Assembly (NCBI GenBank): GCA_000092065.1 | Contig: CP000584.1 | Reading direction: 5' to 3' (one strand) | From: Ostreococcus lucimarinus | Taxonomy: Eukaryota | Length of the DNA: 64,000 bases | In this document: piece by piece, positions 1-50,433 of the stretch | Layout of the letters: every line of letters begins with the position of its first letter | How positions within the stretch are numbered: position 1 is the stretch's first letter | The notes under the pieces: generated by a model | Databases searched by the model: none | The model's input: only the letters and a program-made list of their open reading frames with translations | Told to the model about the DNA's origin: nothing | Position numbers and translations under genes: made by a program

Positions 1-17
1 GCGCGCGCGCGCGCGCG
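1..17. repeat. (GC)n dinucleotide microsatellite at window edge
   Basis: gcgcgcgcgcgcgcgcg read directly. Confidence 0.9.
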
Positions 18-63
18 GACGGGACGCGCGACGGCCGACCGTCGACCGCGTCGACCGCGCGCG

Positions 64-2577
64 ATGGCGGACCTCGACGGCGCGCGCGCGGCGCTGCGTC
101 GCGCGGTCGAGCGGCTCGAGGGCGGCGGCGCGCGCGACGACGGCGGCGCGGACGACGACGGCGGCGCGCGACGACGGCGCGCGGCGTCGCGGCGCGCGCG
201 CGCGGACGTCGATCTGCACCACGCGTTGGGCGCGCGCGCGGAGCGGGCGATCGAGCGCGAGACGGGGGCGTACGCGAGCGCGGCGAGCGCGGCGAGCGCG
301 GCGAAGGACGCGAGCGAGGACGCGTACGAGAGCCTGGCGCACGTCGCGCGAGGATGCAGCGCGAGAGCGTTCGTGCGAGGGTTGGGGACGTGGACGACGA
401 CGCTGAGCGAGCGGGTGAGGGCGAGCGAGCGAGGAGGGGCGAGCGGGGCGACGCGGGCGGCGAGCGAGGCGCTGCGGGAGACGCTGACGCGGGCGGGCGG
501 ACTGGCGGACGTGCCGGGGGTGAGGAAGGAGTGCTCGAACGCGATCGCGACGGCGTCGAGCGGGATGGTGCGGATGATGACGCAGGGAACGCGCGAGGGG
601 TTCGAGTTGGCGACGACGTGCGCGAGGTGGCATCCGGGGGCGCTGCGGCCGCACGCGGCGGCGCTGGAGAAGGCGTGCGCGGCGATCGTGAGTTCGAGCG
701 AGGATGAAGACGCGCGCGGGCGCGCGGTGGTGTGTTTGGCGGCGCTGCCGAGAATCGCGGGCGATGCTGGGGCTTGGAGCGCGCACGCGAGGCGCGTGAT
801 GTACGCCGCGCACTCGGCGATGCACGACGCGTTCGAAGGCGCCGAGGACGGCGAGCTCAAGCGTCAACTCGACGTTACGCTCGCACCTCCGACCGAAACG
901 TTGCCGAAACCGTTCACCGAGGGAGGGTGGCCGCTCGGTTCGATCGAGGCTTTGGTTTCAATGTTGGAGTGTCTCGAGGAAATGTGTCGCGCTCGATTTC
1001 CGTGCGCCGTGCCGATGCCCACCGCCGCCGCGGTGACGCTCGTCGCTCGAGCGCTCGCGTGCGATGGCACGCCGGTGGCGTCCATACCGGGGCTTCCACC
1101 GTCTCCGGTGGCGCCAGAGCTCGTCGTCGCGTTGCCGCGCGTGCACATCGCGGCTTTGGGGGTATTAGAGGCGCTACTAGAGACGGCGCGAACCACGGCG
1201 CTGCCGCAGGGAGGTAGAATAGCTAGAGCTCTCGAGGGCGTGCTGCGGGCTAGCGCGCCTTCGCCGAGCGACGTCGAGAATGGGGAACCAATTCGGCATC
1301 GCATGCACGCTCGCGCGTGCGCGCACGACGCCATCGCCATTGCTTCGTACGCGCTCGGCGGGGCGTACGTGAGCGGCGAGCTCGCATCCGCGGTCGCTTC
1401 GTTCGTCATTCAAGATGCGAAACCGTGTGGAACGGGGAAGAGCGCGCTCGCCAGCGGTGGTCAACAAAGCAAAGCGAGTGCGAAGAAACGCAAAAAAGGT
1501 GGCGCGTGGGGTAACGCCACGGCAGAAGGTTTGGACGATCTCACTACGGCTGCGGCTTTGGACGATATGAGCGGCCCCTCGGCGGGGTCGGCGGCTTTGG
1601 AAGCCATCAAGTTGCAAACATCCGCGCTGCGAGCGCTGACTGCGATGCTCACGATCGCCGGCGCCATGCTCGCTCCGGGCATTCGATCGAGAATGGACGT
1701 CACGATCTCACAAGCAATCGCGCAAGTGTGCGATTTGTCCGCGCCGATGGCTGAGGTGGACGACGCGAGCGCCGAACGCCGCGATGCGGCGTTCGACGCT
1801 CTCCTCGCGTCCGTGCTGGCACCTCGACCTTTCCGATCGCCGAATCTACCCTTAGCCGTGGCTGTGTTCGCCAAGGGTTCGTGCGATCCGCAGACGTCGA
1901 AGAAGTGCGCGCAGGCGGCGCTCGCGATTAACGCGTTGTTGCACCCGTCGGCGCCGCCGTTGGCTTCGCAAGCCATTGCGCCGCCTGTCGAGCGCATGGG
2001 TGCCGAAAGTAACGCGATGGCACCACAGTGGGCGTCATTTACATTTGACGCGCACACTGCGGCGAACGTCGGCGCCGCTGACGCGCTGCGAGCGAGCGTT
2101 GGTGATTATTACAAGACGGCGGATGCGCCGACGGCGATAAACGCCGCGGTCAAACAGAATGCCGTGGCGCCTGCACCCGTCGATGATGAGCCCGACGGCG
2201 AGAATGTCGATATGGAAAACAGCGAATTGCCGGCGAATGCAAACGCAACCGTGCAGCCGGCCGAGGTCGAGGCGTTCAAAAACGTCCCCGTCTCCGGATT
2301 CGGAGCGGCCGCCGGCGCGCCGGCGTTCGCCGCGCCAAAGGCAAATGTCGAACCACCGACGGACTTCATCTCCTTCTCCGCACCCGCGAATAAAAAGGCC
2401 AAATCGGACATGTGGGACACCAATCCCGAACCCGTCGGTCTCGGCAGTGGGAAGTCTAAAGTCGTCATGGAGCTCTCCGACGACTCGGACGGAGAACTAC
2501 CCGAAATTCACAGCGGCGACGACGAAGACGAAGAAGACGAAGAAGACGAAGAAGACGAAGGCGAAGAAGACGAATAA
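64..2577 (+). CDS. hypothetical alpha-helical protein with poly-acidic C-terminal tail (DDEDEEDEEDEEDEGEEDE); possibly Rix1/PELP1-like, family uncertain
   Basis: 837-aa ATG ORF with normal amino-acid composition over most of its length. Acidic tail is encoded by a GAA/GAC repeat at 2518-2575. No confident homology recognised. Confidence 0.5.
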   Translation: MADLDGARAALRRAVERLEGGGARDDGGADDDGGARRRRAASRRARADVDLHHALGARAERAIERETGAYASAASAASAAKDASEDAYESLAHVARGCSARAFVRGLGTWTTTLSERVRASERGGASGATRAASEALRETLTRAGGLADVPGVRKECSNAIATASSGMVRMMTQGTREGFELATTCARWHPGALRPHAAALEKACAAIVSSSEDEDARGRAVVCLAALPRIAGDAGAWSAHARRVMYAAHSAMHDAFEGAEDGELKRQLDVTLAPPTETLPKPFTEGGWPLGSIEALVSMLECLEEMCRARFPCAVPMPTAAAVTLVARALACDGTPVASIPGLPPSPVAPELVVALPRVHIAALGVLEALLETARTTALPQGGRIARALEGVLRASAPSPSDVENGEPIRHRMHARACAHDAIAIASYALGGAYVSGELASAVASFVIQDAKPCGTGKSALASGGQQSKASAKKRKKGGAWGNATAEGLDDLTTAAALDDMSGPSAGSAALEAIKLQTSALRALTAMLTIAGAMLAPGIRSRMDVTISQAIAQVCDLSAPMAEVDDASAERRDAAFDALLASVLAPRPFRSPNLPLAVAVFAKGSCDPQTSKKCAQAALAINALLHPSAPPLASQAIAPPVERMGAESNAMAPQWASFTFDAHTAANVGAADALRASVGDYYKTADAPTAINAAVKQNAVAPAPVDDEPDGENVDMENSELPANANATVQPAEVEAFKNVPVSGFGAAAGAPAFAAPKANVEPPTDFISFSAPANKKAKSDMWDTNPEPVGLGSGKSKVVMELSDDSDGELPEIHSGDDEDEEDEEDEEDEGEEDE

Positions 2578-33085: not shown

Positions 33086-36000
33086 ATGACGGACGCGCCG
33101 CCGGCGCGCGGCGAGATCCTCGCGCACTTCTGGTCGCTGAGCGCCGACGACGCGTCGACGCGGAAGCGCGCGTGCGAGGCGCTGATGCGCGATCTTCGAG
33201 CCGCCGCCGCCGCCGACGGCGCGCGCGCGCGGCGTGGCGACGACGACGGCGACGAAGGCGCGGACGCGCGGGCGTACGCGCTGCGAAGACTCACGCGAGG
33301 GCTGAGCTCGGGACGGGCGGGCGCGAGGCAGGGGTTCGCGCTGGCGCTGAGCGAACTGGCGACGCACGCGGCGACGCCGGCGGAGGCGCTGGACGCGCTG
33401 GACGCGAACGTCGCGCCGATCACGAAGGCGACGAAGGGACAGGAGGCGAGAGACATACTGTTGGGAAGACTGTTCGGGGCGGCGGCGATCGGATTAGCGC
33501 TGGGAGGGCGAGAAGACGTGCGCGAGGAGGAGCGGAGACGGTGCGGGGCGGAGGTGGCGAGACGCGCGGAGACGCTGTCGAGGGAGAAGACGTACTTGGC
33601 GGAGCCCGCGGCGGCGTGCGTGATCGAGCTCAGGGCTTCGTTGGGGGACGAGACGTTCGCGGGGGTGGTCGAAGACGCGGGAGAAGGGTTGGAGCGGTGG
33701 TTGAGCGGGGATTGCGGCGGCGACGCCGGGGCGGATACGCTTTGGCTGGCGTGCGAGACGTTTGAGGCGTTGCCGCGCGAGACGCGCGATAGAGTTCAGT
33801 GCGTGCGGGCGACGAAGAAGGGCAAGAAGGTTGATTGGGCCGAGATGTTTACTCGAACGCATTTGAGTAAGATTTCAAAGGCGCTTTTGGACACCGCGCA
33901 CACGCACCCGCGCATGCACAGCGCGTGGGAGATGATGCTTCGCGAAGCCCCGGGAGCCCGAGGCGTCGTACCGCTGTGGGAGATTGTGTGCGAAGACGGC
34001 TTATTCGTCTCCGGCTCGCATCAGCGTCGGTTTCTCGGATTCCGCGTGTTCGACACCTTACTCTCTTCCGCGGAAGCTCACGAAATCCCCGCACTGTTTT
34101 CTAGCAACTTTATCAAGTGCTTGTTGAACAACCTGAGCGCGCCGGACAACTACCTCCACGAATGCGCGGTGGACTGTTTGGCGAGAATCGTTGCGTTCGC
34201 GTCGGATAAGAAGACGAGCTCGGAGAAGAAGATTGCCGTCATAGCCGCGCTTCAGCGTCAAGGTCCGACACGTTTCGATAACGTGACGAAGACAAACGCG
34301 GTGCAGGACTTGGTGAAGAGTCTGGACAGCGACGATGCGTTGCACTACTTGCAGAGCATGTACGCCGTCGTGACTAAGGCGCCCGTACAAGATTCCGACG
34401 TCGTCGGCACAGAAGAAGAACTCGCGAGCGCGTTAGCGAACGGTACGGGTCAAAAGCGCCGCCTGTGGGCGCTCGAACAAATGGCTGGATTGGCGCCGAT
34501 GCTCCCGAGCGATAAAGTCGTGGAATTGATGCAGTTTATGCTTTTCCACGCATATTACAAAGCCACGGATGGTAAGGCGGGGAAGAAGGGCAAGTCCAAC
34601 ATTCCAGCGAGCATCCTGAAGTCACCGCTCGAAGAACCCACCGGGTCCGTGCGCTCGGCGTGCTCGACGCGCTTCTTAGCGATGATCAATTCTAACGTTC
34701 GCGCGCAACGCGCGGCGGCAAGTAAGGAGTCGGATGACAAGCAAGACGTCGTCGATTTATTGAGCGAAGCCACTTCGTTTTGCCGCGCTCTCGAGGGCGA
34801 GACAGCGGTGGACATGATCGACAGTATTCCGGACGAGTGCAGAGAAGTGCGCGCTGAGCTGTTCAAAGCCCTCGACGCGTGTGTCGGTAGCGGCGACGAG
34901 TTGGCGGCGAAGGTCGCACCACTCATTCGCGTCTTGTCCGTGCTCCAAGTCGGTGACTGGCGCGAATTCACGCCGGCATTGCAGGACCTTCCGCGTTGCG
35001 TCGGAGAACTCGTGAATCCTAAGAAAAAGTCAAAAAAGTCGAAAAAGTCGAAGAAAGACGGAGAGGACGAGCCTGAAGCGATCGATGTGCTCACTGATAT
35101 TCTTCTCAGCTTGCTTGCTCAACCGAGCGCGTTGCTTCGGGATGTCGTCGAGCACACCTTCAAAGCCGTCTCTGGACAAGTTTCCAAAGAAGGTATTCAG
35201 GACATGCTGCGAATCATCGCCGGGCCAGAAGTCGGTGAAGATGCTGGCGAGGGTGAGGGCGACGGTGAAGACGAAGACGTGCTCATGGAAGATGATGATA
35301 GCGACGTCGATGACGACGATGACGACGACGAAGAGAGCGACGACGACGACGATGACGAAGAGAGCGATGACGAGGAAGACTACGGTGAAGCTAACGATGC
35401 GGAAATCGCGGCTATGCGCGCTGCGGCGAGTAAAATCGTCGGGACTGCGGCGGAAGATTCGGATGATTCTGACTCAGAGTCTGAAGGTATGGATGACGCC
35501 GCGATGTTCCGAATCGACAAACTTCTCGCCGAGGCGTTCAAGAGTCGACAGCAAGATTTGATGCGTAAGAAGAATCTGAAGCGCGCAACGCGCGACTTCA
35601 AATTCCGAGTCATCTCTTTGTTCCAGTTGTACGCGAAAGCGCAGCCGGGAAGTGCATATCTACCTAACGCGGTCGTAACACTCTTGGAAGCTATGCGCGA
35701 CTCGCTCGGCAAGCAAGATCCACAAAGCGCGCAACTCGCTGAGCGCATCGCGGCGCTAATCAGCAAGCACATCGCGCACGCGCGCGATTTGCCCGAGCTC
35801 CTTGGGGACGAGGTGACGTCAAAAACAATCCAGTCCAAGTTGCTGGAAGTCATTGTCGCCGCAAACCGGGGTGCCAGTGACGCGCAGGTGTTCAACAAAG
35901 CAGCCGGCGCTGCTGCGGCGTATTTGTTGCGCGTTCTCGAAGCCGTCGCTCTTCACGAGAAAGGCGGAAAAGCCGCAAAGGTGGGTGAAGAAGTTGCGAG

Positions 36001-38986: not shown

Positions 38987-40768
38987 CTAGTAAAGACCGA
39001 TGAACTTCCACCACGACATACCGACGGTGCCATAGATGAAAAAGTTTACCACGGACATGTACAAGCCCTGTTTCCAAAGCTTGTTCAAACTGATTTCACC
39101 CGCGCCAAAGTATACAGCAGCTTGTCCACTGGCGTAGTGCGTCAAACCACCCATGTTGTTCGTGTTGAATGCCAACGAAAGCGCCGCGAGCGGCGGTGGC
39201 ACGCCCGCCGCCAAGAGGAGCGTCAGGAACGCCGGATACAACGCGCCGACGTGCGCCGACTGAGACGCGAAGAAGTAGTGCAAGAAGAAGTAAAACACAT
39301 GGAGCGCTGTGAACATACCCCACACGCCCAAGTTCAGGCTCAAGAGGTACGTAGACACGAATCCACTCAACCAGGAGACGACGCCCATCGCGTTGAGCTG
39401 GCCGCTGAAACCGACCAAAACGGCGAACCAAATCAGCGTATCCCATGAGCCTTTTTGCCCGAGCGCTTCGTCCCAAGACAGCACGCCGAACATGAGCATG
39501 AAGCACATGCCAATCATGGCCGCAACTACGGCGCTGATACCGAGCTGGACGCCGAACACCCACAAAAACACAGTCAAACTGAGCGACCCGACCATCTTCT
39601 TCTCGATGCTACTCAAAGGGCCGAGTTGTTTGAGACGTTCTGCTGCCGCCATGGGCGCCTCCGGGGTCTCGTTCAGCTCCGGTGGATCGAGCATAAACAC
39701 TACGAACGGAGTAGCGAGAAGTGACACGAGCGCGGGCACGCTCGCCGCGACGAACCAAGTATTGAACGGGTTCGAGAATGGAATTCCGCTCTGCAGTGCG
39801 ATTTGCATCGCCAAAAAGTTTTGAGCGGCACCAGATAACAAAAATGTCGACGTCGCGCTCGTGCCTTGGATTTGTTGTCCGATGAGATACTCTCGCGTGC
39901 GCTTATCGAGCGACTTGATGACCGGTACGAAGACACCAGCCGCTCGCGCGGTGGTGGACGGCATCGCCGGCGAAAGCAACGCCTCGGCGATTTGAAAACC
40001 GTACGCGAGTGAAAGCGTCGTCCCACCCGCGATGGACACGAAAAGCAACGCCAATCTATCACCAAAGCCAGTTTTTATGAACGCCCTGGCAAAAAACCCC
40101 GTGACGACGATGAGCCACACGACCTCGTTCGTTATCGCGCTCATACCCTGCGTAAACGTAAGCGTCTTCGTCGCCAGCGCCACCGTCAACGCCCCGAACG
40201 CCCACGCCCCGATCGGCATCGGTTTCAGCACTAAACCCGTCACCGTACTCACAAATATACTCAACAAGTCCCACGCCGGTGGATCCAGCGCCGCTGGACA
40301 ACCGATCCCGAACCGCAAAAACGCCCCGACCCCGACGGCGACGAGCGCGTTCGTCACGTTCAACTCGTCCGCCTCCTCCACCACCGCTCTCGTCGTCGAC
40401 GCGCCTCCCGCCGCGCTCACCGTCACATCCACCGTCTCCTTCTCGCCGTCTCCATCACCGTTCGACGACCGCATCGCGACCCGTCTCGCGCGTCTCGTCG
40501 TCCCTCGCGCGTCTCCCAGACACCCGATCGCGCGTTCGCCTCCCCCGTCGCCTCCGACCGCGTCCCGTCGCGCGCGCGCGCCGACGCGAACGAACCCATC
40601 GTACACGCTTCGCGCCTTGGCCTCGCACGTCTCTCCTCGCGCGCGGCGTCGCGCGCCGACGTGCGCGAAACGCGTCGCTTTTTGATTCCGGCGGCTCGAC
40701 GCGCGCGCGCGCGCGCCGTCGCACCGCGATCGCTCGACGCCCAGCGCGGGCGCGGCGACGACGCGCAT
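38987..40768 (-). CDS. DIT: plastidic 2-oxoglutarate/malate (dicarboxylate) translocator, DASS/SLC13 family (DiT1/DiT2-like)
   Basis: GAWAFGALTVALATKTLTFTQGMSAITNEVVWLIVVTGFFARAFIKTGFGDRLALLFV...STTARAAGVFVP...WWKFIGLY is near-collinear with spinach/Arabidopsis DiT1. Confidence 0.85.
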   Translation of the reverse strand: MRVVAAPALGVERSRCDGARARASSRRNQKATRFAHVGARRRARGETCEAKARSVYDGFVRVGARARRDAVGGDGGGERAIGCLGDARGTTRRARRVAMRSSNGDGDGEKETVDVTVSAAGGASTTRAVVEEADELNVTNALVAVGVGAFLRFGIGCPAALDPPAWDLLSIFVSTVTGLVLKPMPIGAWAFGALTVALATKTLTFTQGMSAITNEVVWLIVVTGFFARAFIKTGFGDRLALLFVSIAGGTTLSLAYGFQIAEALLSPAMPSTTARAAGVFVPVIKSLDKRTREYLIGQQIQGTSATSTFLLSGAAQNFLAMQIALQSGIPFSNPFNTWFVAASVPALVSLLATPFVVFMLDPPELNETPEAPMAAAERLKQLGPLSSIEKKMVGSLSLTVFLWVFGVQLGISAVVAAMIGMCFMLMFGVLSWDEALGQKGSWDTLIWFAVLVGFSGQLNAMGVVSWLSGFVSTYLLSLNLGVWGMFTALHVFYFFLHYFFASQSAHVGALYPAFLTLLLAAGVPPPLAALSLAFNTNNMGGLTHYASGQAAVYFGAGEISLNKLWKQGLYMSVVNFFIYGTVGMSWWKFIGLY

Positions 40769-41174
40769 CGTCCGTTCGCTGCGCGGCTCGCACGCGCGGG
40801 CGCTCGCGCGTGCGCGTGTGAAGAGCGCGCCGCGCGCGAATCACTTTTTGGAAATGGTCACGCGGCGACGGTCGGCCGGTCGACGGCGCCGCGGGACGAC
40901 GAGCGAAACGCGAGAGCGAAGCGCGCGACGAAGCGCGCGAAATGGATGCATGGCCGCTGTGAATACACGCGAACTAATGATGATGCGCGAGAAAATCCGA
41001 GACGCACGCGCGGGAGACGGAATATCGACGCGAGCGGGGCGCGCCGAAGCGCGCGTGACCGCTCGCGCGTCACGGAGCGGAGAGGCTCGACGTCGTCTCC
41101 GCGGACGTTTGAAACGCGGATATATCGCGCGCGGCGTCGTCGATGGATGACGACGACGACGCGAAATAATGTGG

Positions 41175-41912
41175 TTAAATACCGACGGCTTTTAAGACGT
41201 CGGCGATCTCGGGATGCGCACCCGGGAGCGCGTCGGCCCAAGCGTATTCGACGTCGTCGCCGGCTAAAACGAACGTGCCGCCGAGACGCAACACACCCTC
41301 TGGAACGCCCTTTTGACCCTTCTTGATCGGCGCCAACTTCCCCGCGTTCCCGAGATACGCCAACCAATCCTTGAACGAAAAGTTCGTCGGCTTCAAATCC
41401 ACCTTCTCCGGCTTGGCGTCGGTAAATTTCCCGAATCCGCACGCGTCGTACAGCGCGAAATCGTCGCTATCGTCGACGAACGCGATGTCGCTCGGAATCT
41501 CCGGATTCAACTCCAAAAACGTCCTCAACTGCTCCGCCGTCCCGAGACTCACGAGCGTCACGCTCCCGCCCGCCGCCTCGATCCGTCCTCGACTGTCCGC
41601 CACGCTCCGCGCGTAGCTCCAACAAAACAGTCACGCGAGGTGACGAAGCACGACGACGACGTTCGGCGCGCCCGACGTCGCGCGTCCGAGCGGCGCGCGC
41701 GTCCCGTCGGCGCCGACGATCTCGCACGCGCGCAGCGCGGCCGCGGAGACGCTCGCGCCGTTGATGGTCGCCGTTCGCGCGCCGACGTCGTCGTCGACCG
41801 CGCACGCGATCTCGCCGCAGTCGAGCGCGCGCGGCGCGACGCGGCGCGCGGCGCGCGCGCGACGCGCGGCGACCGGCGCGGGCGCGACGGTCGGCGCGCG
41901 CGCGGCGCGCAT
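41175..41912 (-). CDS. SELU: selenoprotein U (SelU/PRXL2 family, AhpC/TSA thioredoxin-like) with in-frame TGA, candidate Sec codon, at 41631..41633
   Basis: Track ORFs 41631..41912 and 41175..41603 are in the same frame, separated only by the TGA at 41633..41631. Read-through gives ...APNVVVVLRHLA-U-LFCWSYARSVADSRGRIEAAGGSVTLVSLGTAEQLRTFLE...LGGTFVLAGDDVEYAWADALPGAHPEIADVLKAVGI. This is collinear with PRXL2B ...[40 protein letters not shown]...GGLLVVSKGGDKVLLHFVQ..., with the TGA at the first Cys of CxxC. Confidence 0.7.
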
Positions 41913-41995
41913 GGCGTCGCTCGAGCGTCGCGATGTGACTCGCGCGCGGTGCGCGGTCGCGCGTCAGACGCGCGCGCGGCGCGACGGCGGCGACG

Positions 41996-42868
41996 ATGCC
42001 GGCGCGCGCGCGCGGGGCGACGCTCGCGTACGACGTCCCGAGGCTTCGCCTGGACGCCGCGACGCGCGCGGAGGTGGACGCGCTCCTGCGACGACGCGCG
42101 CCGTTGATTTTGGTGGATGACGACGCGCGCGCGCGCGTGCCGCGGTGGACGACGGAGACGCTCGCGCGCGCGGCGAGTCGCGACGCCGTCCCGCTCGAGC
42201 GCACGGGCGCGAACGAACGCGCGTGCGTCTTGACGGAGTATCTCAAGTTTGAAGACGAAGAGACGCGCGGGATGTACATGCGAAACTTGCACCTGTCGCG
42301 GTACTTTCCGAAGCTCGCCGAGGAGATTCGGTTGCCGGAGGATTTGTTCGGCGAGAACGCGCTGGCGGACGAGACGAAAACGCCGAACGCGCCCGCCGTC
42401 TGGCGGAATTGGTTCGAGCTGTTCGTGTGTCACGCGAAGCACTGCGCCGGGTTTCCTTTTTTACATCGCGATTCGTGCTGCGTGCACGCGGCGTCGTATC
42501 AAATTCTCGGTCGCAAGCGCTTCACGCTGTTCGCGCCGAGCGAAGGTCCGCGACTGTACCAATCCGGCGGCACTGGGAATCGTTCGATGATCGAAGACAT
42601 CGACGCCCCGGACGTCTTCGAGCGATATCCAGAGTTTCGACGCGCCCGCCGCTTAACGGTGGACGTCTCGGAGGGGGAAATATTAGTCGTGCCGTCGATG
42701 TGGTGGCACACCGCTTCGCCGCTCCCGTGCGAAGCCTCGGACGACGTCTGCGTCAGCGTCGCCGCGTCCTTCGTCGATGATTCCGTGTACGAAAACTTCT
42801 TAGACGCGCACGCGGAGTTTCAGGCGATGCAAAGCCTCGTCGCCGCCGGCGCGGCGAAGATGTTGTAG
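41996..42868 (+). CDS. JmjC-domain (cupin-8) protein
   Basis: WRNWFELFVCHAKHCAGFPFLHRDSCCVHAASYQILGRKRFTLFAPS...VVPSMWWHTA is the JmjC double-stranded beta-helix with the HxD...H iron ligands. Confidence 0.65.
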   Translation: MPARARGATLAYDVPRLRLDAATRAEVDALLRRRAPLILVDDDARARVPRWTTETLARAASRDAVPLERTGANERACVLTEYLKFEDEETRGMYMRNLHLSRYFPKLAEEIRLPEDLFGENALADETKTPNAPAVWRNWFELFVCHAKHCAGFPFLHRDSCCVHAASYQILGRKRFTLFAPSEGPRLYQSGGTGNRSMIEDIDAPDVFERYPEFRRARRLTVDVSEGEILVVPSMWWHTASPLPCEASDDVCVSVAASFVDDSVYENFLDAHAEFQAMQSLVAAGAAKML

Positions 42869-42906
42869 TCGTAACGTACGAAAAGTTCTCAGACTGCGAC
42901 GCCGCG

Positions 42907-44946
42907 ATGCGAAGCGCGTCCGGCGCCGCCGCCTCGACGGCGTCGTCACCGCGCGCGCGCGATCCTCGCGCGCGCCGCGCCGCGCCGCGCGTCGCCGTCA
43001 CCGCGCGCGCGGTGACGCGAGCGGACGCACCGCGCGCGCCGTCGCCCGCGCCCGAGAACGCGGACCAGAACACGCTGCTCGCGACCGCCGCGGTCGTCGG
43101 CGTCGCGAGCGGACTCGCGGTGTCCGCGTTCGCGGCGACGGAGAAGGCGATCAACGTGGTGGCGAGCGCGAGCTGCGCGAGCGTCGGGTGCGACGGCGCG
43201 GCGGCGTTCGGCGCGCTGGATCCGGGAGGAGAACTGGGGAACGCGCTGGGCACGGTCGCGGTGCCAGCGCTCGGAGGATTGTGCGTGAGTGCGCTTCGAG
43301 CGCTCGCGGGGGGGTTCGCGGGAGAACCGGAGCGAGGATGGATGTTTGGGAAGGCGAGCGCGAACGCGGGGAGCGCGAGCACGGACGATTACGCGGGGAT
43401 CGATTTGAATGAGTTCGATGAGAACGAGGACGTCAGGGTCGGCGTTAAGGTGCTCGCGAAGACCGCGGCGGCGGCGATCACACTCGGGACGGGATGTTCG
43501 CTCGGGCCAGAAGGGCCAAGCGTGGAGATTGGCGCGGCGGTGGCGGATCGAGTGGGCGCGGCGTTTCCATCCGTGGCGCCGAATAGATTGGGATTATTAG
43601 CCGCGGGGGCCGCCGCGGGGTTTAGCGCGGGTTTCGGCGCGCCGATTTCCGGGTTGTTCTTCGGGTTTGAGTCAATTCTCGTGCCCGGGTCGAAAGCTGG
43701 TGGTGATGGCGACACCAAAGCTGGCGCGGTGACGACGGAGATGGTCATCTTGGCGAGTGTCTTGGCGACAGTGGCGAGTAAAGCCGTCCTCGGCGCGCTG
43801 CCTTCCGTGGACGTGCCGCCGTTTGAAATTTCGGACTTTGTCGAGCTTCCTTTGTACCTGCCGCTCGGGTTCGCGTGTGGAGTCACCGCCGCTGCTCTGA
43901 GAAAGATGAATGTCGTTTTTGACGATTTCGCGGAGAATTTCGTCGCCGTAGAACGCGAAAAAGGCGGGTTGGGCATTTCTAGAATATGGCACGCCCCGAT
44001 AGGGGGATTTCTGCTCGGCTGCCTGGCGTTGAAGTTTCCTCAGGTGACGTACCAAGGTTTCGATAACGTCAACGCGCTGCTTGTGCAAAACGATGCCGGC
44101 GCTGGTTGGGCCGCGGCGACGTATACTCCATTGGTTCTCGGCGAGTTCGTGCTCGCGAAACTGCTCGCGACGGCGATTTGTCGAGGTTCAGGGTTGGTCG
44201 GTGGCGTATATGCACCTTCTCTATTTTTAGGCGCCGCTTTGGGTACGGCTTTCGGTGGCGCACTGGAATCGACGTATTTCCCACCTATGTTTGTCGCGCC
44301 GCCGCAAGCATACGCGCTCGTCGCCATGGCCGGCGTTCTCGGGGGCGTTTGTCGCGTCCCTCTCACAGCCATATTGCTTTTGTTCGAGCTCACAGGTGAT
44401 TATAGAATAATTTTGCCGCTGATGGGTACCGTCACGGTCGCAACCTCCATCGTGAATTCAGTGGAGACGAGCGCGGTGCCTTTCAGCACGAGCGACATCG
44501 AGACGCGCGGCGTGGCGGCTCTCGCTAGCTCGCTCGTGGCCCGTCCGCGTGATCTCATGAGGAGCGATATCGTCATCATCGATGAGGAGACTACGATTGA
44601 AGCGGCTTCGATGACTCTTTTGAGGGTATCTGATTCCGAAAATCCGCCGCCGTGCGCGTTCGTCGTCGCCGACGGCGTGTTCGTCGGCGTCGTCACTCCG
44701 AGTAGCATCGCGGATGCCATTGTGCAGCGCGGATTTGATACGCGTGCGCGCGTCGCTGAAGCATTGATCGACGTGAAGGTCATAGAGCCCGACGTCAAGT
44801 TACGAGACGTCGACTTCGCCGATGACGGCGCATTCGCCGTCGTTGTCGACTCGTCCAATCAGCCCTTGGGCGTGGTCGAGACTAGCGCGGCGTTGAAGCA
44901 AATGAGTCGCGAGCGTCTTCGTTCTGCCTTGTCTGGCGAATTGTAA
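42907..44946 (+). CDS. CLC: CLC-family chloride channel/transporter with C-terminal CBS domains (plastid ClC-e/f-like)
   Basis: GSGLVGGVYAPSLFLGAALG, GPEGPSVEIGAAVA and GFGAPISGLFFGFE are CLC selectivity/gating motifs. Transit peptide present. Confidence 0.85.
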   Translation: MRSASGAAASTASSPRARDPRARRAAPRVAVTARAVTRADAPRAPSPAPENADQNTLLATAAVVGVASGLAVSAFAATEKAINVVASASCASVGCDGAAAFGALDPGGELGNALGTVAVPALGGLCVSALRALAGGFAGEPERGWMFGKASANAGSASTDDYAGIDLNEFDENEDVRVGVKVLAKTAAAAITLGTGCSLGPEGPSVEIGAAVADRVGAAFPSVAPNRLGLLAAGAAAGFSAGFGAPISGLFFGFESILVPGSKAGGDGDTKAGAVTTEMVILASVLATVASKAVLGALPSVDVPPFEISDFVELPLYLPLGFACGVTAAALRKMNVVFDDFAENFVAVEREKGGLGISRIWHAPIGGFLLGCLALKFPQVTYQGFDNVNALLVQNDAGAGWAAATYTPLVLGEFVLAKLLATAICRGSGLVGGVYAPSLFLGAALGTAFGGALESTYFPPMFVAPPQAYALVAMAGVLGGVCRVPLTAILLLFELTGDYRIILPLMGTVTVATSIVNSVETSAVPFSTSDIETRGVAALASSLVARPRDLMRSDIVIIDEETTIEAASMTLLRVSDSENPPPCAFVVADGVFVGVVTPSSIADAIVQRGFDTRARVAEALIDVKVIEPDVKLRDVDFADDGAFAVVVDSSNQPLGVVETSAALKQMSRERLRSALSGEL

Positions 44947-49170: not shown

Positions 49171-50433
49171 ATGTACCCCGTCAAACTCAACGCGCTCCAC
49201 AACTTCCTACGATTCTCGTGCGCCACCTTCACCACGAACGTCCCCGCGAACGCCTCCCCCGCGCCCGCGCGCTCGCCGCCGACGAATTCCACCTCGAACC
49301 CGCCGTCGATCGCCCCGTGCGCCCGTCGCACCGCCGCGCGCACCATCGACTCCAAGCCCGCGCGCGACCACTTCCACGTCGCGTCTCGCGTGATCCTGCG
49401 CGTCGTTCGCGCGCGCGTCGTCGTCGTCAGTCTTCCAGTCTTCGTCCTCCCGCGCGCCTCGCGAGCGCCGACGCGTCCGTTCGCCGTCGCGCGCGCGCCT
49501 CGCCTCGCCTCGCCGACGCACAGTCGTATCCTCACGTACGCCCACCGCGCGCGCGGGAGCTCGAACGTGCGCTGCGCGACGTCGCTATCCATCGCGCGCG
49601 CTCGCGTGACGCCGCACTCCATGCCGACGCCCGCGCTCGCGCGCCTCGCGCTCGCGCGCCCGCGCGCGGACGTCCGCGCGGCGCGCGCGCGCGCGCGCGC
49701 CAACGTCAACGCCGACCTCGCGGACGTCGAGCGCGACGCGCGGAACGCCGGGCGCGCGCTCGTGCGCGTCTCGCGCGCGTTCGCCGTCGACCTCGGCGAC
49801 GCCGCGCGCGACGGCGCGCGCACCGCGCGCGAGTACGTCGCGCTGCCGGCGACGGAGTACAATCTCATCGACCCGGAGAACGTGTCGCGCGCGAGCGACG
49901 ACGCGAACGGGTTCGTCGTGAGCGCGGGGAGGCAAAAGCTGCTGTTTCTGGACGTCGAGCCGCGCGGGACGGTGCGCGTCGACGCGAGCGAGGAGGGATG
50001 CGTGCAGTCGCTCGTGGACGCGGTGATCGTGAATCGTAACCCGGACGACGCGAAGGCGACGAAAATAATCGACGCGATCAACGCGAGCCTGAAGGACCTG
50101 CGGTTGAGGAACGAGGTGACGGCGACGCGCTGCGAGGACACGGGGCGGGCGAGCATACGATGCCAAATCGACGTGTGGGGGGACTTTCGAGAGGGCGTGT
50201 TCGCGCGCGCGGGAACGCGGTTGAACACGATCTTAGGATGGAGCTTGGGGGCGGTGATGCCGTGGTTTTTGACGCAGCTCGCGGCGGATTACGCGAGATG
50301 GGCGCGCGACGAGCCGCGGACGACGGCGGAGAACGCGTCCCTGGCGAGCGTGGCGGGGAAAATCATCGCGGGGAGTCGAGGGAAGCTTCCCGAGGGCGTG
50401 CGCGAGTGCGAGTGCGTTGAAATAGTGCGATAA
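49171..50433 (+). CDS. conserved hypothetical protein (plastid-targeted; DUF-type)
   Basis: ATG at 49171. The plus frame has strong GC3 bias from the first codons (atg tac ccc gtc aaa ctc aac gcg ctc cac aac ttc...), which rejects the overlapping minus ORF 49095..50228. Confidence 0.55.
   Translation: MYPVKLNALHNFLRFSCATFTTNVPANASPAPARSPPTNSTSNPPSIAPCARRTAARTIDSKPARDHFHVASRVILRVVRARVVVVSLPVFVLPRASRAPTRPFAVARAPRLASPTHSRILTYAHRARGSSNVRCATSLSIARARVTPHSMPTPALARLALARPRADVRAARARARANVNADLADVERDARNAGRALVRVSRAFAVDLGDAARDGARTAREYVALPATEYNLIDPENVSRASDDANGFVVSAGRQKLLFLDVEPRGTVRVDASEEGCVQSLVDAVIVNRNPDDAKATKIIDAINASLKDLRLRNEVTATRCEDTGRASIRCQIDVWGDFREGVFARAGTRLNTILGWSLGAVMPWFLTQLAADYARWARDEPRTTAENASLASVAGKIIAGSRGKLPEGVRECECVEIVR

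What the first reader, a model, noticed from the sequence alone, without database searches (positions are those of the whole stretch)
41175..41912. Candidate Sec-encoding selenoprotein U gene: in-frame TGA sits exactly at the first Cys of the CxxC redox motif
Two adjacent minus-strand ORFs in the track are the same gene in the same frame, interrupted only by the TGA at 41631..41633. Translating through it gives ...VVVVLRHLA-U-LFCWSYARS..., collinear with the vertebrate PRXL2 (FAM213) redox site ...[19 protein letters not shown]..., and homology continues on both sides. PRXL2 proteins are the Cys paralogues of selenoprotein U, and green picoalgae have large selenoproteomes, so a UxxC SelU is the natural reading. 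The standard ORF track splits it into two fragments, so routine annotation would probably miss it.
Basis: partly seen in the sequence, partly recalled or inferred. Interest (0 to 1): 0.9.

Follow-up and report, generated by a model that had tools for sequence, protein, structure and literature searches.

The report
Known Ostreococcus Prx-like selenoprotein gene
The two adjacent reading frames are one real selenocysteine-encoding gene for a peroxiredoxin-like redox enzyme in the green picoalga Ostreococcus lucimarinus, but this exact gene was already published as a selenoprotein in 2007, so the finding is correct yet not new.

Summary
On the minus strand, 41912..41175 is one frame broken only by TGA at 41633..41631. 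Reading through gives ...VVVVLRHLA-U-LFCWSYARS. The window comes from Ostreococcus lucimarinus or a near-identical strain. This exact 245-residue protein, with U at this site, is listed in Lobanov et al. 2007 (Genome Biol 8:R198, Additional file 2) as "O. lucimarinus Prx-like protein", Chr-4 [713178, 713915], which is 738 nt like 41175..41912.

Independent support:
- The TGA sits at the same codon in 11 distinct related sequences among about 30 loci fetched, with protein conservation on both sides.
- More distant homologues carry Cys there; the one checked at DNA level has TGC.
- A SECIS element lies 101 nt after the stop. Its core GUGA is at 41073..41070 and its GA at 41026..41025, with a 10-bp helix 2 and a mini-stem. 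It is conserved with compensatory changes in orthologous 3'UTRs.
- The "non-canonical" GUGA is the normal Ostreococcus SECIS type.

"SelU" fits only at superfamily level (Pfam PF13911; best fold match human PRXL2B). The O. lucimarinus SelU orthologue is a different gene on chromosome 9. GenBank still annotates only the C-terminal fragment.

Verdict: real, correctly read, already known, low interest.

The parts
41175..41912 (-). Complete coding sequence of the Prx-like selenoprotein: 245 codons plus TAA stop, with one in-frame UGA (Sec94)
   Evidence: Same length (738 nt) and, apart from OCR differences, same protein as 'O. lucimarinus Prx-like protein, Chr-4 [713178,713915]' in PMC2375036 Additional file 2.
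41910..41912 (-). ATG start codon, the first in-frame ATG after the upstream stop
   Evidence: upstream in-frame translation has no earlier Met; same start as the published model.
41826..41912 (-). Arg/Ala-rich N-terminal presequence (about residues 1-29). Probably an organellar targeting peptide; this is inference only
   Evidence: Sequence shows no acidic residues before residue 31. Orthologues have equally basic, poorly conserved N-termini that end just before the conserved ALDCGE motif. No targeting predictor was available.
41802..41819 (-). Conserved CxxxxC motif (C32-GEIA-C37) at the start of the mature protein
   Evidence: CGEIAC in window, L003 and L006; CGERAC in L005; CELVEC in L008 and L010. 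Function unknown.
41631..41633 (-). UGA codon 94, read as selenocysteine
   Evidence: TGA conserved in 11 distinct related sequences. (aligned to Cys in homologues, TGC in the one checked at DNA level). Published as U.
41622..41633 (-). U94-L-F-C97 redox motif (UxxC)
41232..41588 (-). Region matching Pfam PF13911 AhpC-TSA_2 (residues 109-227)
   Evidence: 27.1 bits against a cutoff of 27.0. 25 of 27 aligned homologues also match.
41175..41177 (-). TAA stop codon
41013..41100 (-). SECIS element region in the 3'UTR, including a tentative helix 1 (GGAGACG 41100..41094 with CGUCUCC 41019..41013)
   Evidence: Helix 1 is my reading of the sequence and is the least certain part.
41070..41073 (-). SECIS core 5' side: G-UGA (G before the quartet, the Ostreococcus type)
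   Evidence: GTGA invariant in the 6 aligned orthologous elements. for the Ostreococcus norm.
41059..41068 (-). SECIS helix 2, 5' strand GCGCGAGCGG
41039..41058 (-). Apical part: 5' bulge UCAC (no AA motif), then mini-stem GCGCGC / UUCG loop / GCGCGC
   Evidence: the MFE and the centroid are the same structure. Same architecture in 8 orthologous elements folded separately.
41028..41037 (-). SECIS helix 2, 3' strand CCGCUCGCGU
41025..41026 (-). SECIS core 3' side: GA

Best explanation
This is the Ostreococcus lucimarinus 'Prx-like protein' selenoprotein gene. It is one intronless minus-strand gene (41912..41175).

How it most likely works:
- Translation starts at AUG 41912.
- At codon 94 (UGA, 41633..41631) the ribosome does not terminate. 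A SECIS element in the 3'UTR directs insertion of selenocysteine. The element has its core G-UGA at 41073..41070 and GA at 41026..41025, a 10-bp helix 2, a UCAC bulge and a GC mini-stem. It lies 101 nt after the TAA stop and 560 nt after the UGA. Insertion would go through the standard eukaryotic machinery (SBP2, eEFSec, Sec-tRNA); that step is inferred from established knowledge.
- The product is a 245-residue preprotein with a basic N-terminal presequence. Organellar targeting is inferred, not shown.
- The mature domain has a thioredoxin/peroxiredoxin-like fold of the PF13911 (AhpC-TSA_2 / PRXL2 / SelU-type) superfamily.
- Its active site is U94-x-x-C97. It presumably cycles between selenol/thiol and selenenylsulfide as a thiol-dependent oxidoreductase. 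The substrate is unknown.

Shown here: gene continuity, conservation of the UGA, Sec/Cys correspondence, a conserved and covarying SECIS, fold family, and identity with the published gene. Inferred: actual Sec insertion in vivo, targeting and chemistry.
For: 1. Identity with the literature. PMC2375036 Additional file 2 gives this protein with U at this position, labelled 'O. lucimarinus Prx-like protein', Chr-4 [713178,713915]. The neighbouring genes and the C-terminal fragment match O. lucimarinus CCE9901 entries XP_001417575, XP_001417576 and XP_001417329.

2. The TGA is at the identical codon in 11 distinct related sequences among about 30 loci. The amino-acid flanks are conserved on both sides, and the synteny JmjC/Cupin_8 - this gene - DiT transporter is kept.

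3. Cys homologues exist. Representatives at 38-46% identity have LRHL(G/A)-C-xx-CWSYA. The codon was verified as TGC in L031. In pairwise alignments with the plant At5g65840-type protein, the Chlamydomonas SelU-aligned sequence, and the O. lucimarinus Trx-fold and SelU selenoproteins, this site falls on their first Cys or Sec.

4. SECIS element.
- There is exactly one GTGA...GA candidate with a helix 2 of at least 9 bp in the window's 3'UTR, against 0 of 500 dinucleotide shuffles. The same holds in six other lineages, with at most 10 of 500 shuffles each.
- Eight orthologous elements fold on their own into the same architecture.
- Helix 2 shows changes on both sides at 5 of 10 pairs. 78% of cells are paired, against 30-55% when the partner strand is slid (per-sequence pairs).
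- A covariance model built from 6 elements recovers elements it was not built from at the expected place: L017/L018 at 43 bits and L021/L022 at 21 bits.
- A G before the quartet and a long mini-stem are the described Ostreococcus SECIS features.

5. Fold. Pfam PF13911 matches. An AlphaFold model of the homologue P0010 has pLDDT above 90 over most of the core domain (residues 80-190 and 240-293). Its best match among solved structures is human prostamide/PGF synthase (PRXL2B; 9usa, E 2e-8), followed by BCP/PrxQ peroxiredoxins.
Against: - No direct expression or 75Se evidence exists for this protein. The 75Se labelling in PMC2375036 was done on O. tauri, where this gene was not reported.
- Rfam SECIS covariance models give no hit here at E up to 10. 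They also miss all orthologous elements, including AUGA-type ones, so this says little.
- The window's SECIS has no AA dinucleotide anywhere between GUGA and GA. The apical bulge is UCAC, whereas most orthologues have AA there.
- Helix 1 is poorly defined, and the 3' strand of helix 2 has a competing pairing with upstream sequence in the 96-nt MFE fold.
- The Pfam score is only just at threshold (27.1 against 27.0).
- The structure model is of a 35-44% identical homologue, not of the window protein.
Confidence: 0.93

Rival explanations
1. It is the selenoprotein U (SelU/PRXL2A-type) orthologue of O. lucimarinus.
For: - PF13911 is the SelU/PRXL2 domain.
- The UxxC motif is collinear with the PRXL2 CxxC.
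Against: - PMC2375036 lists a separate O. lucimarinus SelU at Chr_9 [184824,185411] with the SelU1 motif RRPGUxLCR, and files this gene separately as 'Prx-like'.
- BLASTP gives 36 bits to O. lucimarinus SelU, against 55 to the plant At5g65840-type protein and 47 to the Ostreococcus Trx-fold selenoprotein. Human PRXL2A is not significant.
- A profile search against PDB sequences reaches PRXL2B only at E = 2.
Confidence: 0.04
2. It is a pseudogene, or two unrelated small ORFs, and the TGA is a genuine stop.
For: - GenBank annotates only the downstream fragment as 'predicted protein, partial'.
- There is no Rfam SECIS hit.
Against: - The TGA and both flanks are conserved across lineages down to 42% identity.
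- The downstream part has no ATG of its own near the break.
- Cys (TGC) sits at the same codon in a homologue.
- A conserved, covarying SECIS lies in the 3'UTR.
Confidence: 0.02
3. The UGA is decoded by SECIS-independent read-through (near-cognate Trp, Cys or Arg), or lies in an unrecognised intron.
For: The base after UGA is C in all 11 distinct sequences. From general knowledge, UGA-C is a weak termination context.
Against: - The codon aligns with the catalytic Cys of a redox motif.
- A SECIS is present and conserved.
- Frame and homology run straight through the codon, with no splice-like discontinuity.
- Ostreococcus is a documented heavy Sec user, with 29 selenoproteins.
Confidence: 0.01

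Closest known systems
O. lucimarinus 'Prx-like protein' selenoprotein (Lobanov et al. 2007, Genome Biol 8:R198, Additional data file 2; Chr-4 [713178,713915])
   Same: Same protein sequence apart from OCR noise, same Sec position, same 738-nt span, same species and same chromosome-scale context. This is the same gene.
   Different: - The paper reports it as one of three selenoproteins found in O. lucimarinus but not O. tauri.
- Here, syntenic Sec-containing orthologues are seen in several other Mamiellales-like metagenome lineages, and Cys forms in more distant algae.
- The window may come from a near-identical strain rather than CCE9901 itself. Some neighbouring proteins are exact only in other assemblies.
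Selenoprotein U / PRXL2 family (SelU1-3, which I equate from my own knowledge with PRXL2A, PRXL2B and PRXL2C; Pfam PF13911 AhpC-TSA_2)
   Same: - PF13911 domain.
- Thioredoxin/peroxiredoxin-like fold.
- U/CxxC at the same structural position.
- Best solved-structure match is human PRXL2B (prostamide/PGF synthase; 9usa, 9us9).
   Different: - Not orthologous to SelU1. O. lucimarinus has its own SelU on Chr 9.
- Sequence similarity is remote: 36 bits to O. lucimarinus SelU, not significant to human PRXL2A, and profile E = 2 to PRXL2B.
- The motif is LRHL(A/G)U(L/P)xCWSYA rather than RRPGUxLCR.
Ostreococcus/diatom 'Trx-fold selenoprotein' and plant At5g65840-type (NP_201385) Cys proteins
   Same: Among the five sequences transcribed from the Lobanov et al. 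supplement, the plant At5g65840-type protein scored highest (55 bits), followed by the Chlamydomonas SelU-aligned sequence (48) and the O. lucimarinus Trx-fold selenoprotein (47). Motifs are similar (LLRHFGCVCCWELA and LRSFGUFFASERA), and the U/C site aligns.
   Different: - Only about 27% identity.
- The Trx-fold selenoprotein is a separate O. lucimarinus gene, at Chr_1 [945135,945881].
- This clade has its own signature (PEGVLRLGGTFV, LELNP) and an N-terminal CxxxxC.
Typical peroxiredoxins (BCP/PrxQ, AhpE, Tpx; Pfam PF00578/PF08534)
   Same: Same overall fold. These are the second tier of structural matches (3hjp, 5iox, 1xvw and others, E 1e-6 to 1e-3).
   Different: - No PF00578 or PF08534 match.
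- The active site is UxxC at the helix N-terminus, not the PxxxT/SxxC peroxidatic motif. Residue -3 is His.
Eukaryotic type-II SECIS element, Ostreococcus variant
   Same: - G-UGA...GA quartet.
- Helix 2 of about 10 bp.
- 5' bulge followed by a long mini-stem.
- Located in the 3'UTR.
This is the form described for Ostreococcus.
   Different: - The window element lacks the AA(R) motif and has UCAC instead. A near-identical strain has UCG plus an extra A-U pair.
- It is not detected by Rfam models.

Membership tests
Eukaryotic selenoprotein gene (UGA-Sec plus SECIS) | In-frame UGA with coding conservation on both sides, kept in orthologues | tested here: met
   TGA at the same codon in 11 distinct related sequences among about 30 loci, with flanks conserved.
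Eukaryotic selenoprotein gene (UGA-Sec plus SECIS) | UGA aligns with Cys (TGC/TGT) in homologues at a functional site | tested here: met
   LRHLGCxxCWSYA in many representatives; TGC in L031; aligned to the first Cys or Sec of the CxxC motif in four relatives.
Eukaryotic selenoprotein gene (UGA-Sec plus SECIS) | SECIS in the 3'UTR: (A/G)UGA...GA quartet flanking a stable helix 2 | tested here: met
   (0 of 500 shuffles). Conserved position and covariation in orthologues.
Eukaryotic selenoprotein gene (UGA-Sec plus SECIS) | Conserved unpaired AA(R) in the apical loop or bulge of the SECIS | tested here: not met
   There is no AA between GUGA and GA in the window; the bulge is UCAC. AA is present in the elements of L003, L005, L006, L008, L010 and L030. 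From general knowledge, functional SECIS elements with CC instead of AA exist, so this is a deviation rather than an exclusion.
Eukaryotic selenoprotein gene (UGA-Sec plus SECIS) | Match to the Rfam SECIS covariance models | tested here: not met
   No hit at E up to 10 in the window or in 9 orthologous loci, including AUGA-type elements. The test is insensitive for these algae.
Eukaryotic selenoprotein gene (UGA-Sec plus SECIS) | Selenium actually incorporated (75Se labelling or mass spectrometry) | not testable with these tools
   The published labelling was on O. tauri only.
SelU / PRXL2 (PF13911 AhpC-TSA_2) superfamily | PF13911 domain at or above Pfam's gathering score | tested here: met
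   27.1 bits against a cutoff of 27.0 for the window protein. 25 of 27 homologues match, best E 5e-10. The margin is small for the window protein itself.
SelU / PRXL2 (PF13911 AhpC-TSA_2) superfamily | Thioredoxin/Prx-like fold closest to a PRXL2 structure | tested here: met
   The model of homologue P0010 has human PRXL2B (9usa, 9us9) as its top hits, E 2e-8 to 4e-6. Tested on a homologue, not on the window protein.
SelU sensu stricto (SelU1/PRXL2A orthologue) | Orthology to SelU1 and the RRPG(U/C)xLCR active-site signature | tested here: not met
   The motif here is LRHLAULFCWSY. The O. lucimarinus SelU is a different gene on Chr_9. Similarity is the weakest among algal relatives, at 36 bits, and human PRXL2A is not significant.
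Typical peroxiredoxin (PF00578 / PF08534) | Pfam AhpC-TSA or Redoxin domain and the PxxxT/SxxC peroxidatic motif | tested here: not met
   No such Pfam hit. The sequence before U94 is R-H-L-A, without Thr or Ser at -3.

The most novel reading that the evidence does not exclude
The gene itself is known, but two details may not be described.

1. The clade is not specific to O. lucimarinus. It appears to be a syntenic, always-Sec gene across Mamiellales-like lineages, with Cys forms only in more distant algae.

2. Its recoding signals look unusual.
- The O. lucimarinus-type SECIS has no AA motif (UCAC or UCG bulge).
- The nucleotides around the Sec codon are frozen at synonymous sites. They read G-UGA-CUG in all 9 Mamiellales-like sequences compared (GGG-UGA-CUG in 7, GCG in the window and L017), and C follows UGA in all 11. 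This hints at a local context element that assists Sec decoding.
Probability: 0.3. Interest if true: 0.3.

Novelty: already known. Interest (0 to 1): 0.12.

Why it matters
- It confirms that reading raw sequence can recover a genuine selenoprotein gene that standard ORF calling and the GenBank record split. XP_001417576.1 is still only a 'partial' C-terminal fragment.
- It also shows that diatom gene models skip the Sec segment.
- Scientifically it adds little. The gene, its Sec site and the peculiar G-UGA SECIS type of Ostreococcus were published in 2007.
- The modest extras are the wider, syntenic distribution of Sec orthologues, an AA-less SECIS variant, and the conserved UGA context. These could interest people who curate selenoproteomes or build SECIS detectors for algae.

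Tried and rejected
- Rfam scans at E up to 10 on the window region and on 9 orthologous loci found no SECIS family hit anywhere. The only matches were miRNA-like or snoRNA-like noise, so I treated the result as uninformative.
- The first MAFFT alignment of SECIS regions with long flanks put L003 and L010 out of register. I re-did it anchored at GUGA...GA.
- The afdb50 fold library was unavailable, so the PDB library was used.
- Sequence searches of PDB gave nothing significant, either with the single protein or with a profile (PRXL2B only at E = 2).
- A terminator-like 5-bp hairpin spanning the UGA (41644..41630) is not conserved in orthologues and was dropped.
- Weak covariance-model hits elsewhere are GC-rich noise: window 35874..35916 at 17.7 bits, window 40785..40847 at 14.8 bits, and minus-strand hits in L017/L018 at about 23 bits with at most 6 bp of helix 2.
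- A second GUGA further downstream (about 40845) does not form a SECIS-like helix.
- No other published O. lucimarinus selenoprotein maps to this stretch of chromosome 4.
- The only tRNA in the window is tRNA-Ala, so there is no tRNA-Sec here.

Full report
**Observation**

On the minus strand, 41912..41175 is one reading frame of 245 codons interrupted only by TGA at 41633..41631. The read-through product is MRAARAPTV...NVVVVLRHLA-U-LFCWSYARSVADSRG...KAVGI. The split into two ORFs comes from the ORF lister. The second ORF's GTG start at 41603 has no meaning in a eukaryote, and coding similarity resumes directly after the TGA. The coordinates and the quoted motif in the finding are correct.

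**Source organism and prior publication**

Exact-sequence look-ups of the neighbouring proteins and the C-terminal fragment place the window in Ostreococcus lucimarinus or a near-identical strain:
- the DiT/DASS transporter clusters with XP_001417575;
- the JmjC protein clusters with XP_001417329;
- the 142-aa fragment matches XP_001417576.1, 'predicted protein, partial', differing only in how the initial GTG is translated.

Lobanov et al. 2007 (PMC2375036) report 29 selenoproteins in O. lucimarinus. [quoted passage not shown] Their Additional data file 2 prints '>O. lucimarinus Prx-like protein'. Apart from OCR noise this is the window's protein, with U in ...LRHLAULFCWSYARS.... The coordinates given are Chr-4 [713178, 713915], which is 738 nt, the same as 41175..41912. 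The gene and its Sec codon are therefore already in the literature.

**Independent check of the Sec codon**

- Nearly all of the 60 closest database proteins are fragments of 135-160 aa that begin just after this position. This is what gene callers produce when a TGA is present.
- The homologous loci fetched (translated) and the 20 metagenome loci all carry TGA at the same codon. They collapse to 11 distinct sequences, 100% to 42% identical to the window.
- The motif (V/L/Y)LRH(L/M)(A/G)-TGA-(L/P)xC(W/A)S(Y/F)A is conserved, and so is the N-terminal half.
- The synteny JmjC/Cupin_8 - this gene - DiT is kept in L005, L006 and L010.
- In one full-length database protein (P0010) the TGA had been translated as Trp.
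- Two diatom gene models (Pseudo-nitzschia, Attheya) simply skip the U-x-x-C segment.
- An exhaustive HMMER search found only 194 cluster representatives.
- The full-length representatives mostly have Cys at the Sec column, for example FLRHLGCPYCWSYA. In one of them the codon is TGC.

So the classical Sec/Cys signature is met.

**SECIS element**

Anatomy on the minus strand:

| Part | Coordinates | Sequence |
|---|---|---|
| Quartet, 5' side | 41073..41070 | G-UGA |
| Unpaired | 41069 | C |
| Helix 2, 5' strand | 41068..41059 | GCGCGAGCGG |
| Bulge | 41058..41055 | UCAC |
| Mini-stem with loop | 41054..41039 | GCGCGC-UUCG-GCGCGC |
| Unpaired | 41038 | C |
| Helix 2, 3' strand | 41037..41028 | CCGCUCGCGU |
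| Unpaired | 41027 | C |
| Quartet, 3' side | 41026..41025 | GA |
| Tentative helix 1 | 41100..41094 with 41019..41013 | GGAGACG / CGUCUCC |

The element starts 101 nt after the stop and 560 nt after the UGA.

Evidence for it:
- Lobanov et al. state that nearly all Ostreococcus SECIS elements have a G before the quartet and a long mini-stem. The element is therefore typical for the genus, not non-canonical.
- A simple structural pattern (GTGA, N, at least 9 bp allowing one irregularity, N, GA) occurs exactly once in the 300 nt after the stop, and in 0 of 500 dinucleotide shuffles.
- Six other lineages each have a candidate at 48-127 nt after their stop (L006 has a second GA partner for the same GTGA), with at most 10 of 500 shuffles.
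- Eight orthologous elements, folded separately, all give the same architecture.
- On an anchored alignment, helix 2 shows changes on both sides at 5 of 10 pairs. 78% of cells are paired, against 30-55% for slid partners. Examples are GCGCAAACU/AGUUUGAGC in L008 and GCUCAACG/CGUUGGAGC in L010.
- A covariance model built from six elements recovers elements it was not built from at the expected place: L017/L018 at 43 bits and L021/L022 at 21 bits. It finds nothing else convincing in the 64-kb window.
- More distant homologues (L002, L030) have AUGA-type elements with an AA bulge.

Evidence against or neutral:
- Rfam's SECIS models detect none of these elements, so that negative result is uninformative.
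- The window's element, like that of L021, has no AA motif. A near-identical strain has UCG plus an extra A-U pair.

**Protein family**

- Pfam gives only PF13911 (AhpC-TSA_2), just at threshold for the window protein (27.1 against 27.0). It matches 25 of 27 aligned homologues.
- The tool would not accept the read-through sequence, so an AlphaFold model was made for the full-length homologue P0010. It has high confidence over most of the core domain.
- Its best match among solved structures is human prostamide/prostaglandin F synthase (9usa and 9us9, E 2e-8 to 4e-6), ahead of BCP/PrxQ-type peroxiredoxins. I equate this enzyme with PRXL2B, one of the SelU paralogues, from my own knowledge.
- At sequence level the relationship is remote. 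A profile reaches PRXL2B only at E = 2.
- BLASTP scores against sequences transcribed from the Lobanov supplement:

| Subject | Bits |
|---|---|
| Plant At5g65840-type protein | 55 |
| Chlamydomonas 'SelU' | 48 |
| O. lucimarinus 'Trx-fold' selenoprotein | 47 |
| O. lucimarinus SelU | 36 |
| Human PRXL2A | not significant |

- O. lucimarinus SelU proper is a separate gene on chromosome 9, with the motif VVMRRPGUVLCRGEA.

The gene is therefore a distinct paralogue within the PF13911 superfamily. It is 'SelU-like' only in the broad sense, and 'Prx-like protein' is its published name.

**Mechanism**

Shown:
- one gene;
- a conserved UGA at the position of the first redox Cys;
- a conserved and covarying 3'UTR SECIS;
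- a Trx/Prx-like fold.

Inferred from established knowledge of eukaryotic Sec decoding and of CxxC/UxxC oxidoreductases:
- SBP2/eEFSec-dependent insertion of Sec at codon 94;
- a selenenylsulfide U94-C97 redox cycle;
- organellar targeting through the Arg/Ala-rich presequence.

The substrate is unknown. No 75Se or transcript data for this particular gene could be reached with the tools.

**Rivals**

- A pseudogene or two separate ORFs is excluded by conservation, the Cys homologues and the SECIS.
- SECIS-independent read-through or an intron is very unlikely for the same reasons.
- Strict SelU orthology fails the membership test.

**Verdict**

The family label is too specific, and the finding is not new. 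Novelty is 'already known' and interest is low. Minor possibly undescribed details are listed under things noticed in passing.

Noticed in passing
window 41628..41636 (minus strand); L003, L005, L006, L008, L010, L017, L021, L026, L030, L002: Synonymous positions around the Sec codon do not vary. The codon before is GGG in 7 of the 9 Mamiellales-like sequences (GCG in the window and L017). The codon after is always CTG, even in AT-rich L010, which uses TTA for Leu nearby. The base after UGA is C in all 11 distinct sequences. This may be a local context constraint on recoding.
   Followed up: partly
window 41055..41058 (minus strand); L017:581-635; L021:1789-1848: The O. lucimarinus-type SECIS has no AA motif: the bulge is UCAC here and in L021, and UCG in L017. 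Elements in L003, L005, L006, L008, L010 and L030 have AA at that place.
   Followed up: partly
window 41802..41819 (minus strand): A CxxxxC motif (CGEIAC) at the start of the mature protein is conserved in Mamiellales-like orthologues (CGERAC, CELVEC) but absent from the diatom-like homologue P0010. It could be a second redox or metal site.
   Followed up: no
L001 (ENA ERZ23495712, scaffold_51282), 1..310: This metagenome contig is identical to the window from 'DDDVGART' through the SECIS to the DiT start, but carries about 300 nt of unrelated AT-rich sequence upstream. That gives a different N-terminus (P0048). It looks like a chimeric assembly.
   Followed up: partly
P0037 (Pseudo-nitzschia multistriata, NCBI) and P0022 (Attheya, EukProt): Database gene models of diatom homologues jump from ...FLRHMG (P0037), or from shortly before that motif (P0022), straight to the next conserved block, omitting the U-x-x-C segment. 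This suggests the TGA was spliced out as a false intron or otherwise lost during gene or ORF calling.
   Followed up: no
window 38987..44946; L005, L006, L010: The gene order JmjC/Cupin_8 (divergent, only 83 nt between the two start codons), then the Prx-like selenoprotein, then the DiT/DASS transporter, is conserved in several related picoalgal lineages. A ClC channel with CBS domains follows the JmjC gene in the window.
   Followed up: partly
74 representatives (e.g. P0144, P0202): A few homologues have lost the redox residue altogether: Asp or Ser at the Sec/Cys column, and DPYSWSY in P0144. The family therefore contains Sec, Cys and apparently redox-dead forms.
   Followed up: no
window 49545..49639 (minus strand): ARAGORN called a 95-nt tRNA-Ala(CGC), the only tRNA in the window. 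It is longer than a standard tRNA, so it may contain an intron or be a loose call.
   Followed up: no
L005:389-506: A GACGAT/GTCGAC-rich near-palindromic repeat lies in the N-terminal coding region of the L005 orthologue, which encodes an MSTTMSTS repeat. It gives sub-threshold miRNA-family hits in Rfam, which is most likely an artefact of the repeat.
   Followed up: no
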